NCBI GenBank assembly: GCA_038046345.1
Contig: JBBSWJ010000005.1
Coordinates: 36,083-100,082 of the forward strand
Origin: Nanobdellota archaeon
Lineage (GTDB): Archaea; Nanobdellota; Nanobdellia; SCGC-AAA011-G17; JACPNG01
Length of the DNA: 64,000 nucleotides
Direction of reading: 5' to 3'
The position numbers were made by a program, and so were the translations under genes. This document shows, one piece after another, positions 39,817 through 42,603 of this stretch; the first letter of the stretch is position 1; every line of letters begins with the position of its first letter. Below the pieces are notes generated by a model. That model worked only from the letters and a program-made list of their open reading frames with translations. It did no database searches and was not told where the DNA came from.

Positions 39817-42603
39817 TTATAATTCTTTTATACCCTTTCTATCTTTTATTTGTTTTCTTATTTTATCTTGCAATGATTCAGGCAGCTTCTCATACATTTG
39901 GTCTACCACAAAATAGCTACCCCGGCCACCAGTAGCGGATCTTAAGTCGCTGCTTAATCCAAACATTTCACCAACAGGTAGCTTGCATTTAACGGTCATT
40001 TGTACTCCCTCTTGTTGCACTTCTAACAATTGCCCTCTTTTATTTTGTATTAATTTAGATACATCTCCTAAATAATCACTAGGCGCTCCAATATGTAATT
40101 CCTGTACTGGCTCATAAATATATGGTTTTCCTGTTAGTATAGCCTCTCTTATCCCCTCTCTTACAGCGGGGTATACCTGGGCTGGCCCACGATGTATTGC
40201 ATCTTCATGTAATTTCATATCAGTAACTCTTACTTTCATCTTCATTGTTGGTTCTTTTGCAAGTATTCCAGCATCGCAAACCTGTTCAAAACCATCTATT
40301 ACTAATTCTATTACTTCACCTATCTGAACTATACCACGAGTGTCATCAACTAATAAGTTTCCCTTGTATATATCCCTATATTTCTTCGCGTCTTTTAAGA
40401 TAACTCCTTTCTCTTCTAATTTTTTAAATGTATCAACATCCTTTTTTTTAAGCCTGCCATCAGGTATTTCTCCGTCCCTCATTAATTGATAAATCTCATC
40501 TTCTAAAGGTTCAACAATAAAAAAGAATTTATTATGTTTATTTGGGGATTTTCCTTCTTTTTCTTCAGATACCTTGGTTACCGCTTCTCTGTACACAACA
40601 ATAGGCGGGCTTGTCCTTACTTGCAAACCTTTTTCTGTTTTTATCCTATTCTCAATAACTTCTAAATGTAGTTCGCCCATTCCAGAAATTAAGTTTTCTC
40701 CTGTCTCCTCATTAATTTCGATTGTTATTGTTGGATCCTCTTTGTTTACTTGCTTTAGTACTTCAACAAGTTTTGGCAAGTCAGCAGGAGATGTTGCTTC
40801 AATACTTTTTGTAACAACCGGGTCAAATATATGTTTTATTGCTTCAAACGGTTCCATTTCTTCAGATGCAATTGTCTCTCCAGCAAACACATTTTTTAAC
40901 CCCACTAAACCTACAATATTACCAGCAACTGCTTTTTCAACGGTTACTCTTTGAGCTCCTTTGTATATCGATACCTGTTGTATTCTAATCTTTCTTTTTG
41001 CATTGATCATATATGCATCATCGCCCTGTCTTACAGTTCCAGAGAATAATCTACCAGCCGTTACTTCTCCTGCATGTTTATCAATAACAATTTTTGTTGC
41101 TACAAAAGCAGTCGGACCATTAGGATTACAGTTTACTAATGACTTTCCAATTTCAGAATCTAAATCTCCATGCCATATTTTTGGCACTCTGTATTTCTGA
41201 GCGTCTACAGGGTTTTTATGGTGTGCTATTACCATCTCGAGGACAACTTCATGCAATGGCGCTTTTTTTGCTATACCCTTCCATTCATCATTTTCATATG
41301 CTTTTATAACATCTTTAAAGCTCAGCCCATTTCTTAGCATATAAGGAGCAGATAACGCCCAATTATGAAATGCAGATCCAAATGCTACACTCCCATCTTT
41401 AACATGAACTAACCATTTTTCTTTAAATTCTTCTGGGGCTACACTCTGTATGAACTTGTTTATCTCAGTTATTATTTTCACAAATCTTTCTTGCATTGCT
41501 TCAGGTGTTAGTTTTACTTCTTTTATTAAACGATCAACTTTGTTTATGAATAATACTGGCTTGACTCTTTCTCTTAACGCTTGACGCAACACGGTTTCTG
41601 TTTGAGGCATTATACCTTCTACTGCATCACATAATACTATTGCCCCGTCTACAGCTCTCATCGCTCTTGTTACATCTCCTCCAAAGTCTACATGCCCGGG
41701 CGTGTCAATTAGATTTATTAGAAAATCTTTTCCATTAATTACGTGAACCATAGATACATTTGCTGAATCAATTGTGATCCCGCGTTCTTGTTCATCTGCG
41801 TGGAAATCCAAAGCTAATTGTTTTCCAGCTAACTCTTGTGACATCATCCCGGCTCCTGCCAATAAATTATCTGAGAATGTTGTATTATGGATCACCATTC
41901 CCTCAGCAACAAAATTATGATTGTCTGCAACTGTAAAATCGTATACCATATCTTTCTGTGTTATCTCTTTTGAATTAACCTCACAGTACATAATATCTTC
42001 ACTTAATATTTTATTCTCTTGGATTAATATTTGTCCATTATTCTCTATTTTTTCTTTATAACCACTTAATGAGATTGATATTGCATCTTTTTGGTGCGGC
42101 CAACTTTTCATGCAAACTACAAGATCCTTCAATTCTAATTCTCTTGCTTCTTTATAACAAAAGTCACGTGCGAGCCTATCCAAAACTAAATAACGATGTT
42201 CTGGTGTTGTTTCAATTGAGCTGCCATTTTTTAATTTTATTTTTATTAGTTCACCGCCAGTTAATTTCCAAGCAAGGCTGATTAGTTTCTTTTCTATTTT
42301 CCCTGAATCTTTATTTAATGATAATACCTTAACACATTGGCTTGTAACATCATAAACAACATGACCATTCTTTTTTTCAAATAGTTTTCCATTTTTTATG
42401 ATCTTATCAAATAGCTTCTCTGCCTGTATAACTGAGCTATCACCTAAAATAATTCTAGACTCACCAGAAATACATTTCCCATGATATCGTTCTATGAAGG
42501 GTTAACTCGATAGAAAATCGATATGGGCGCATATAGCTATATTTCTGATTTGTTCCGGTTCATTCATTAATTTAACAACTTTTTCTGCTATCTTATCCGC
42601 CAT
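39817..42603 (-). CDS. fusA: Elongation factor 2 (aEF-2), interrupted by a BHB intron (42484-42516) and a mini-intein (41884-42474); mature protein about 720 aa
   Basis: Exon 1 [20 protein letters not shown], then HGK, intein, [42 protein letters not shown]. Confidence 0.95.
41884..42474 (-). mobile_element. 197-aa mini-intein in the EF-2 P-loop (GK|T)
   Basis: Begins CISGES, block B TTPEH, ends VYDFTVADNHNFVAEGMVIHN followed by Thr; no endonuclease domain. Confidence 0.95.
42484..42516 (-). other. 33-nt BHB intron inside the fusA coding sequence
   Basis: Outer helix CCCAU/AUGGG, central helix AUCG/CGAU, bulges AU|U and AU|C, intron stem UUCUAU/AUAGAA; contains in-frame TAA. Confidence 0.92.

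What the first reader, a model, noticed from the sequence alone, without database searches (positions are those of the whole stretch)
42484..42516. Canonical BHB intron inside a protein-coding gene: EF-2 mRNA appears to need splicing
Seen: the fusA frame reads MADK..AHID, then 33 nt (UUUCUAUCGAGUUAACCCUUCAUAGAACGAUAU, containing an in-frame UAA), then HGK. The junctions fold into a textbook BHB: outer helix CCCAU/AUGGG, central helix AUCG/CGAU, two 3-nt bulges (AU|U, AU|C) and intron stem UUCUAU/AUAGAA. Cutting after the second nucleotide of each bulge, as EndA does, gives GAU-CAU and exactly restores the G1 motif AHIDHGK. Unspliced mRNA gives a 33-aa peptide. Established: archaeal mRNA introns are essentially known from crenarchaeal cbf5; I know of none in EF-2. 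Inference: an essential elongation factor depends on the tRNA splicing endonuclease/ligase, which could couple EF-2 supply to rRNA/tRNA maturation. Gene callers would miss the true N-terminus.
Basis: partly seen in the sequence, partly recalled or inferred. Interest (0 to 1): 0.96.

Follow-up and report, generated by a model that had tools for sequence, protein, structure and literature searches.

The report
tRNA-type mini-intron splits EF-2 gene
The only gene for the essential translation factor EF-2 in this tiny uncultivated (Woesearchaeota-type DPANN) archaeon is interrupted inside its GTP-binding loop by a 33-base insert shaped like the introns archaea cut out of tRNAs, so its mRNA almost certainly has to be cut and re-joined before a working protein can be made; published work shows such splicing within an archaeal coding sequence only for cbf5.

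Summary
On the minus strand, EF-2 (42603..39817) is one frame broken by a 33-nt insert (42516..42484) with an in-frame TAA between AHID and HGK. The insert and its flanks fold into a canonical bulge-helix-bulge (BHB), and cutting after the second nucleotide of each bulge restores AHIDHGK.

- **Machinery and copy number:** the genome (821 kb, 97% complete) has one EF-2 gene, one EndA and one RtcB.
- **Comparative evidence:** at least 33 of 221 species genomes of the same order with an EF-2 N-terminal match carry 30-38-nt inserts in this 15-nt stretch, at five cut positions. Of 32 unique inserts, 23 shift the frame.
- **Covariation:** with cut sites fixed by the protein motif alone, the central and inner helices pair in 88-90% of cases, against 27-48% for shifted registers. 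No partner shuffle (0/2000) reached the observed inner-helix pairing. RNAalifold finds 10 compensatory pairs.
a 197-aa mini-intein starts 9 nt downstream, so EF-2 needs both RNA splicing and protein splicing.

No transcript evidence could be obtained. I found no paper reporting this. Earlier unchecked notes of this scan describe similar EF-2 inserts on other DNA (Asgard, Bathyarchaeia, another Woesearchaeota-like genome).

The parts
42517..42603 (-). EF-2 exon 1: ATG (42603..42601) to GAU; 29 codons, [29 protein letters not shown]
   Evidence: The N-terminus aligns with intact relatives, which read ...[22 protein letters not shown].
42484..42516 (-). 33-nt BHB intron UUUCUAUCGAGUUAACCCUUCAUAGAACGAUAU, with in-frame UAA at 42504..42502
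   Evidence: Single copy in the genome.
42523..42527 (-). Outer helix, 5' strand CCCAU (exon 1); pairs with AUGGG at 42482..42478
   Evidence: conserved pairs in RNAalifold.
42519..42522 (-). Central 4-bp helix, 5' strand AUCG (exon 1); pairs with CGAU at 42489..42486 (intron)
   Evidence: Central helix paired in 88% of cells across 32 introns.
42516..42518 (-). 5' bulge AU|U; predicted cut between 42517 and 42516
   Evidence: Canonical geometry applied. This cut is the only BHB-compatible one that restores the motif.
42490..42515 (-). Intron hairpin: stem UUCUAU (42515..42510) / AUAGAA (42495..42490) with apex GAG-UUAACC-CUU
   Evidence: Inner helix paired in 90% of cells with 4-6 pair types per position. 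An RAG-loop-CUY apex is shared by 24 of 32 introns.
42483..42485 (-). 3' bulge AU|C; predicted cut between 42484 and 42483
42475..42483 (-). First three codons of exon 2: CAU GGG AAA = HGK, completing the G1/P-loop motif AHIDHGK
41884..42474 (-). Mini-intein, 197 aa (Cys1 ... VIHN, followed by Thr+1). No homing-endonuclease domain detected.
   Evidence: PF14890, E = 7e-24. Homologous inteins at the same HGK|T site in relatives.
39817..41883 (-). EF-2 C-extein (TTFSDNLL... to stop): GTPase domain remainder and domains II-V
   Evidence: PF00009, PF03144, PF14492, PF03764, PF00679; 66-78% identical to relatives' EF-2.

Best explanation
The 33 nt at 42516..42484 are a bulge-helix-bulge (archaeal tRNA-type) intron inside the coding sequence of the only EF-2 gene.

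Proposed mechanism:
1. In the primary transcript, exon 1 (CCCAU AUCG) pairs with the start of exon 2 (AUGGG) and with the 3' end of the intron (CGAU).
2. With the intron's own hairpin, this forms helix / 3-nt bulge / 4-bp helix / 3-nt bulge / helix.
3. The genome's single alpha-type splicing endonuclease (EndA) cuts after the second nucleotide of each bulge.
4. RtcB joins ...GAU to CAU..., restoring the P-loop codons AHID-HGK and removing the in-frame UAA.
5. The translated precursor then loses a 197-aa mini-intein that begins three codons further on.

Shown here: the sequence, the fold, exact motif repair, the single gene copy, the presence of EndA and RtcB, recurrence of the insert in relatives, and covariation of its helices. 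Inferred: that cleavage and ligation actually happen in the cell.

The intron belongs to a family spread over at least 12 families of the order, at five cut positions within 15 nt. It is most likely a tolerated, slowly moving genetic element. A regulatory role is possible but has no evidence.
For: - **Anatomy:** the fold, and a blind geometric scan whose top hit restores [15 protein letters not shown].
- **Necessity:** read through, the insert would put 11 residues and a stop inside the P-loop. EF-2 is single-copy in a 97%-complete genome, and the rest of the gene is an intact 894-codon frame with all EF-2 domains.
- **Machinery:** EndA (180 aa, N- and C-terminal domains, the only copy found) and RtcB. 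Twelve or more of the 34 tRNA genes are predicted to carry introns.
- **Recurrence:** 32 unique inserts of 30-38 nt from at least 33 species genomes of the order, out of 221 with an EF-2 N-terminal match, plus two further database genomes. In most loci the motif-restoring excision is unique or nearly so, and in 31 of 32 it has BHB geometry (central helix 3-4 of 4 bp). Twenty-three of 32 lengths are not multiples of 3, so these genes cannot be read without excision.
- **Covariation with protein-defined cut sites:** central helix 88%, inner helix 90% and outer helix 66% paired, against 23-48% when the partner is slid by 1-3 nt. Partner shuffling gives 0.47 +/- 0.035 for the inner helix, with 0 of 2000 shuffles reaching the observed value.
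- **Independent fold:** RNAalifold on 16 same-site introns recovers the same architecture, with compensatory double changes in 10 of 16 pairs.
Against: - There is no RNA-level evidence. Neither the spliced nor the unspliced junction of this organism is in the metagenome contig collection. No database protein spans its junction.
- BHB-like folds of this quality are common by chance in this AT-rich genome, about 1 per 13 kb of strand. The fold's z-score is modest (-2.2).
- RNAfold slightly prefers a 5-bp central helix, and that register would not give an in-frame product.
- In 13 of 32 relatives' introns the outermost central pair is a mismatch, and several have almost no outer helix. Whether a single alpha-type EndA cuts such relaxed motifs is unknown. 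This does not apply to the window's own intron, which is canonical.
- The genomes are metagenome assemblies, and relatives are not independent samples.
Confidence: 0.87

Rival explanations
1. The gene is a decaying pseudogene, or the insert is an assembly or sequencing artefact, and nothing is spliced.
For: The genome is a 35-contig metagenome assembly, and raw reads cannot be checked. One relative (L020/G028) has an unexplained 10-nt deficit at the same place, which looks like an error or decay.
Against: - It is the only EF-2 gene in a 97%-complete genome.
- The single defect in 929 codons is the insert itself.
- Equivalent inserts occur in at least 33 independently assembled species genomes from different studies.
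- Their helices covary, which neither decay nor assembly error would produce.
Confidence: 0.03
2. The insert stays in the mRNA and is skipped or decoded by the ribosome. This could be translational bypass, as in phage T4 gene 60 or the mitochondrial 'byp' elements, or stop-codon read-through.
For: The insert is short (33 nt), forms a hairpin and carries a stop codon soon after the take-off point, as in gene 60.
Against: - Bypass needs matching take-off and landing codons. Here the take-off codon is GAU, and the last three intron bases are UAU. None of the 16 same-site introns ends in GAU or GAC (sequences).
- Read-through would leave 11 foreign residues in the P-loop. It is impossible for the 23 of 32 relatives whose inserts shift the frame.
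- The conserved features are the two 3-nt bulges and the 4-bp helix, which are EndA's ruler. Bypass has no use for them.
Confidence: 0.04
3. EndA cuts the BHB, but the halves are not (or not always) re-ligated. The element would then be a cleavage-type switch or decay signal that lowers EF-2 expression, rather than a constitutive intron.
For: Published work on Haloferax first showed cleavage of an mRNA BHB (HVO_1309) without showing ligation (PMC7714728, as summarised in PMC10485636). Yeast TSEN cleaves mRNAs for decay.
Against: - Without ligation no functional EF-2 could be made from the only gene.
- The cut positions are under selection to restore the exact reading frame in all 32 introns at five sites. 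That matters only if the exons are joined.
- RtcB is present.
Confidence: 0.05

Closest known systems
BHB intron in the cbf5 (aCBF5 pseudouridine synthase) pre-mRNA of Crenarchaeota (Watanabe et al. 2002 FEBS Lett; Yoshinari et al. 2006 BBRC; Yokobori et al. 2009, PMC2738675)
   Same: A short non-spliceosomal intron inside an archaeal protein-coding sequence. It is defined by a bulge-helix-bulge fold at the exon-intron junctions and removed by the tRNA-splicing endonuclease and an RNA ligase. Its distribution among relatives is patchy, showing gain and loss.
   Different: - The host gene is EF-2, not cbf5, and the lineage is DPANN/Woesearchaeota, not Desulfurococcales/Sulfolobales.
- The window's BHB is fully canonical, whereas the cbf5 motif is described as relaxed.
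- The genome has a single alpha-type EndA, whereas mRNA splicing was proposed to go with hetero-oligomeric EndA (Yoshinari 2006, title cited).
- The family occupies five cut positions within 15 nt, and in some genes lies next to an intein.
- cbf5 splicing was shown experimentally. This one was not.
Archaeal pre-tRNA and pre-rRNA BHB introns and processing sites (EndA substrates)
   Same: Identical geometry: 3-nt bulges, 4-bp central helix, and cuts after the second bulge nucleotide. The 5' exon pairs with the 3' part of the intron, as the anticodon region does in pre-tRNA. The length (33 nt) is in the range of tRNA introns.
   Different: - It sits in an open reading frame, so excision must also preserve the reading frame.
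- The hairpin apex motif RAG-loop-CUY, shared by 24 of 32 EF-2 introns, is absent from the 12 predicted tRNA introns of this genome.
HVO_1309 mRNA BHB of Haloferax volcanii (Schwarz et al. 2020, PMC7714728; discussed in PMC10485636)
   Same: An EndA-recognised BHB in an mRNA outside Crenarchaeota. Reviewers note that more such cases are likely to exist.
   Different: It is a different gene and lineage. I did not read the primary paper in detail, so I cannot compare its position relative to the coding sequence. The EF-2 case interrupts an essential catalytic motif.
HAC1/XBP1 unconventional mRNA splicing (Ire1 endonuclease plus tRNA ligase/RtcB) in eukaryotes
   Same: Non-spliceosomal removal of a short intron from a coding mRNA: endonucleolytic cuts at RNA stem-loops, then ligation by the tRNA-splicing ligase. 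The unspliced mRNA gives no functional product.
   Different: - The endonuclease and the recognition structure differ.
- HAC1/XBP1 splicing is a regulated stress switch. No regulation is shown here.
Translational bypass elements (T4 gene 60; mitochondrial 'byps')
   Same: Short hairpin-forming inserts with stop codons inside essential coding sequences.
   Different: Bypass elements need matched take-off and landing codons and remain in the mRNA. Here the codons do not match in 0 of 16 same-site introns, and the conserved features are those of a BHB.

Membership tests
Archaeal BHB intron (substrate of splicing endonuclease EndA) | Two 3-nt bulges on opposite strands, separated by a 4-bp helix | tested here: met
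   AUCG/CGAU, flanked by bulges AUU and AUC. RNAfold's own optimum uses a 5-bp variant of the central helix; the canonical register is the alternative.
Archaeal BHB intron (substrate of splicing endonuclease EndA) | Flanking helices on both sides (strict hBHBh' form) | tested here: met
   Outer helix CCCAU/AUGGG (5 bp) and inner helix UUCUAU/AUAGAA (6 bp).
Archaeal BHB intron (substrate of splicing endonuclease EndA) | Cuts at the symmetric bulge positions yield a functional mature RNA | tested here: met
   In silico, GAU|CAU restores AHIDHGK and removes the UAA. The other two motif-restoring cut pairs have no BHB geometry.
Archaeal BHB intron (substrate of splicing endonuclease EndA) | Structure conserved through compensatory changes in homologues | tested here: met
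   Across 32 unique introns, 88-90% pairing in the central and inner helices against 27-48% for shifted registers; 0/2000 shuffles reach the observed inner-helix value. Ten compensatory pairs in RNAalifold.
Archaeal BHB intron (substrate of splicing endonuclease EndA) | EndA and an RNA ligase (RtcB) encoded by the organism | tested here: met
   PF01974 + PF02778 in one 180-aa ORF on contig C32; PF01139 in a 494-codon open frame on C24.
Archaeal BHB intron (substrate of splicing endonuclease EndA) | Cleavage and ligation demonstrated on RNA | not testable with these tools
   No transcript data. Exact junction searches found nothing.
cbf5-type archaeal pre-mRNA intron | BHB intron located inside a protein-coding sequence | tested here: met
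   Between codons 29 and 30 of EF-2.
cbf5-type archaeal pre-mRNA intron | Host gene is cbf5, in Desulfurococcales/Sulfolobales | tested here: not met
   The host gene is EF-2. The organism is a Woesearchaeota/Nanoarchaeia-type DPANN archaeon. It therefore works like the cbf5 intron but is not an orthologue of it.
cbf5-type archaeal pre-mRNA intron | Association with hetero-oligomeric (alpha-beta)2 EndA, as proposed by Yoshinari 2006 | tested here: not met
   Only one EndA-family ORF was found, carrying both the N- and C-terminal domains. A very divergent beta subunit cannot be excluded.
Intein (HINT protein-splicing element), for the neighbouring insert | Cys/Ser at position 1, terminal His-Asn, nucleophile at +1, HINT domain | tested here: met
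   CISGES...VIHN|T; PF14890, E = 7e-24. Homologous inteins at the same site in relatives.
Translational bypass element (gene 60 / byp type) | Take-off codon matched by an identical landing codon at the end of the gap | tested here: not met
   Take-off is GAU. The last three intron bases are UAU here, and never GAU or GAC in 16 same-site introns.

The most novel reading that the evidence does not exclude
The EF-2 P-loop introns are one intron lineage, marked by a conserved UAAG-loop-CUUA hairpin apex. This lineage has repeatedly moved or slid among five cut positions within 15 nt and spread across at least 12 families of Woesearchaeota-type archaea. That would imply one of two things. Either there is an active way of gaining BHB introns in protein genes, for example reverse splicing into the naturally self-complementary CCAU-AUCGAU-CAUGG segment followed by fixation in DNA. 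Or the apex has a function, such as binding a protein or tuning splicing, which would make EF-2 synthesis depend on EndA/RtcB capacity.
Probability: 0.25. Interest if true: 0.9.

Novelty: new member of a known kind. Interest (0 to 1): 0.8.

Why it matters
- **A new class of host gene.** Within a coding sequence, the papers I could search show EndA-type mRNA splicing only for cbf5, plus a second EndA-spliced mRNA in Haloferax (HVO_1309). Here the same mechanism appears in the catalytic loop of an essential, universally conserved translation factor, in a different superphylum, in about one in seven species genomes of an order. The mechanism would then be a recurring feature of archaeal gene structure and no longer a one-gene curiosity.
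- **Annotation.** Gene callers truncate or split such EF-2 genes, and EF-2 is a widely used phylogenetic and completeness marker. DPANN annotations and alignments are therefore affected.
- **Intron evolution.** The family is a compact natural data set of dozens of short introns, at five positions, with clear covariation. It allows study of how BHB introns are gained, slide and are lost in coding sequence.
- **EndA specificity.** It allows testing whether a single-subunit EndA can handle relaxed motifs.
- **Two removals in one gene.** EF-2 here needs two different self-removal steps, of RNA and of protein, 9 nt apart.

Tried and rejected
1. **Second EF-2 copy.** None found; the only other hit is EF-1alpha.
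2. **Genome-wide screen for more mRNA introns.** I screened G000 for excisions that both join long open frames and have BHB geometry. EF-2 ranks first. The next candidates (C35 24554-24585, C12 2954-2985, C6 1157-1179) are ordinary gene-to-gene junctions with a stop and a new ATG. C7 8449-8483 is an artefact of a run of N in a tandem-repeat protein. The screen is crude and would miss short first exons and weak motifs.
3. **Intron as protection against intein homing.** Not supported. Four of 14 intein-bearing genes also have an intron.
4. **Intron co-transferred with the intein.** Not supported. The closest intein (L099, 50% identity) sits in an intron-less gene.
5. **Copies of the intron elsewhere in the genome.** None.
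6. **Direct evidence of splicing.** A protein search with the 62-aa spliced N-terminus found only 55-63% identical relatives. These results are uninformative, not negative.
7. **Shared origin with this genome's tRNA introns.** The apex motif is in 0 of 12 ARAGORN-predicted tRNA introns. ARAGORN's intron boundaries are imprecise.
8. **Literature.** Five full-text searches found no report of an EF-2 or DPANN mRNA BHB intron.
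Full report
**What is in the sequence.** The feature lies on the minus strand. A stop-to-stop frame runs from 42501 to 39817 (894 codons). It is preceded in the same frame by a 33-aa ORF, 42603..42502. Read continuously, the frame gives MADK...[30 protein letters not shown].... 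They split the G1/P-loop motif of a translational GTPase and carry an in-frame UAA (42504..42502). Pfam finds all EF-2 domains in the long frame, plus an intein splicing domain.

**The fold.** RNAfold's minimum-energy structure of the 61-nt junction is a bulge-helix-bulge shape (-14.2 kcal/mol, z = -2.2). I wrote a scorer with the canonical geometry: a 4-bp central helix, two 3-nt bulges, and a cut after the second bulge nucleotide. Its best hit in the 150-nt region is central 4/4, outer 5 bp (CCCAU/AUGGG) and inner 6 bp (UUCUAU/AUAGAA). Cutting there gives [15 protein letters not shown]. Taken the other way, three cut pairs restore the motif, and only this one has BHB geometry.

The fold alone is not enough. 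In this 34% G+C genome, 123 sites reach the same helix lengths, about one per 13 kb of strand. The argument rests on the coincidence with exact motif repair and on comparison with relatives.

**Context in the genome.**
- The window belongs to an 821-kb, 35-contig, 97%-complete genome with a single EF-2 gene.
- Close EF-2 relatives are named Candidatus Woesearchaeota or Nanoarchaeia MAGs, so the organism is a DPANN archaeon.
- The genome encodes one splicing endonuclease: a 180-aa ORF with both the N-terminal and the catalytic domain, and the only copy found. That is the architecture of a single alpha unit.
- It also encodes RtcB.
- ARAGORN predicts introns in at least 12 of its 34 tRNA genes.
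- The intron has no other copy in the genome.

**Comparative evidence.** Most relatives read IRNI..[15 protein letters not shown] without interruption. Many do not. I asked which excision of 12-70 nt restores the motif, and only then scored its geometry. In most loci the solution is unique or nearly so, and in 31 of 32 unique introns the best one has BHB geometry, with the central helix paired at 3 or 4 of 4 positions.

- There are 32 unique introns, from 33 species genomes of the order out of 221 with an N-terminal match, plus two further database genomes. This is a lower bound, because 84 matches were not listed.
- Lengths are 30-38 nt. Twenty-three of 32 are not multiples of three, so those genes cannot be translated at all without excision. 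One genome has a longer insert of about 77 nt.
- The cuts fall at five positions within 15 nt:
  - after the His codon;
  - after the second base of the Ile codon;
  - after the Asp codon (the commonest position, and the window's);
  - after the first base of the Lys codon;
  - after the second base of the Lys codon.
- Carriers are scattered over at least 12 of the order's 29 families. Among the genomes of the window's own family that I examined, I found the intron only in this one.

**Covariation.** The cut sites are fixed by the protein motif and not by structure, so pairing at fixed offsets from them is a fair test. The central helix is paired in 88% of cells, the inner helix in 90% and the outer helix in 66%. 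Sliding the 3' partner by 1-3 nt gives 23-48%. Each inner-helix position shows 4-6 different standard pair types. Shuffling partners among sequences gives 0.47 +/- 0.035 for the inner helix, and none of 2000 shuffles reaches the observed value. RNAalifold, run independently on 16 introns of the window's site, returns the same architecture, with compensatory double changes in 10 of 16 pairs. Relatives are not independent, so these figures overstate significance. The number of distinct pair types is still hard to explain without selection on the fold.

**Mechanism.** The best-supported reading is that the primary transcript folds so that exon 1 pairs with the start of exon 2 and with the 3' end of the intron. 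EndA cuts in both bulges, and RtcB joins GAU to CAU. The mature mRNA then encodes an EF-2 precursor whose 197-aa mini-intein is removed by protein splicing. The intein spans 42474..41884, begins with Cys and ends with His-Asn before Thr, and has no endonuclease domain. The codons themselves help: GCC CAU AUC GAU CAU GGG is naturally self-complementary (CCAU...AUGG around the palindrome AUCGAU). This may explain why the Asp|His site has the strongest outer helices and is the commonest.

**Rivals.**
- **Pseudogene or assembly artefact.** This does not fit the single gene copy, the otherwise intact 929-codon gene, the recurrence in independently assembled genomes, or the covariation.
- **Translational bypass.** This needs matching take-off and landing codons, and none of 16 same-site introns has them. 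Read-through is impossible for the frame-shifting members.
- **Cleavage without ligation.** This would leave the cell without EF-2, and would not select for exact frame restoration.

**Further observations.** Twenty-four of the 32 introns, at four of the five sites, share an RAG-loop-CUY hairpin apex, mostly UAAG...CUUA. Shuffles give 3.4 +/- 1.7. None of this genome's 12 predicted tRNA introns has it. This suggests a single intron lineage that slid or re-inserted among neighbouring positions, or a functional element. I cannot tell which.

Intron and intein are neither mutually exclusive (4 of 14 intein-bearing genes have both) nor evidently co-inherited.

A genome-wide screen for other spliced protein genes found none that survived inspection.

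**Known and new.** Full-text searches found EndA-type splicing inside an archaeal coding sequence only for cbf5 of Crenarchaeota (PMC2738675), plus the Haloferax HVO_1309 mRNA. A 2023 review states that more cases probably remain to be found (PMC10485636). I found no report for EF-2 or for DPANN archaea. A 2018 study notes alpha4-type EndAs with an extra loop in DPANN lineages, associated with more disrupted tRNA genes (PMC5829648).

Earlier unchecked notes of this scan describe similar EF-2 inserts in other genomes: Asgard, Bathyarchaeia, a hot-spring archaeon and another Woesearchaeota-like genome. My tests here were made independently and agree with the last of these. In mechanism this is a new member of a known kind. 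Its host gene, lineage, frequency, multiple cut positions and adjacent intein are new.

**Limits.** No RNA or protein data exist. Searches for the organism's spliced or unspliced junction in public contigs, and for a protein spanning the junction, found nothing. That is uninformative and should not be read as negative.

Noticed in passing
window 41884..42474 (-): A 197-aa mini-intein (Cys1 ... His-Asn | Thr) with no endonuclease domain, inserted after HGK and 9 nt downstream of the intron. Relatives have homologous inteins at the same site, some of 475-507 aa and some mini (183-197 aa).
   Followed up: yes
L020:1471-1520 (+) (genome G028): This relative's EF-2 lacks 10 nt exactly where the Cys-Ala-His codons should be (ATTGCTATA^TTGATCATGG), which shifts the frame. 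It could be an assembly error, decay or an imprecise intron loss. The genome is only 74% complete.
   Followed up: partly
L131 (+), ~130 nt upstream of the FSD motif at base 424 (genome G217): A longer insert of about 77 nt between CAC AU and GAU CAC GGC, near the Ile-codon site. It is outside the 30-38-nt range of the others and was not scored for BHB geometry.
   Followed up: no
32 EF-2 introns in loci L001-L143 (list): An RAG-N3-10-CUY hairpin apex (mostly UAAG-loop-CUUA) is shared by 24 of 32 introns at four of the five cut sites. It is absent from the two introns at the His|Ile site and from this genome's predicted tRNA introns.
   Followed up: partly
window 6193..6249 (-): A 57-nt Rfam tRNA match covering the whole 71-position model, in the spacer between the 16S (6307..7841) and 23S (3005..6017) rRNA genes. 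It is unusually short for a tRNA, and ARAGORN did not call it.
   Followed up: no
window 32566..32661 (-): A tRNA gene of 96 nt by Rfam. ARAGORN calls it tRNA-Thr(GGU) with a 12-nt intron after position 37. The extra length suggests a longer or second intron.
   Followed up: no
window ~61023..61127 (+): ARAGORN calls a 'tRNA-SeC(UCA)' with a 15-nt intron. Rfam reports no tRNA there at its gathering score. It is probably spurious, or an unusual interrupted tRNA.
   Followed up: no
genome contig C7 ~8400..8560 (outside the window): A large Cys-rich protein with tandem repeats (CGNGVCDSDEDYTTCPQDCDDD) containing a run of N. It mimicked an ORF-joining intron in my screen.
   Followed up: yes
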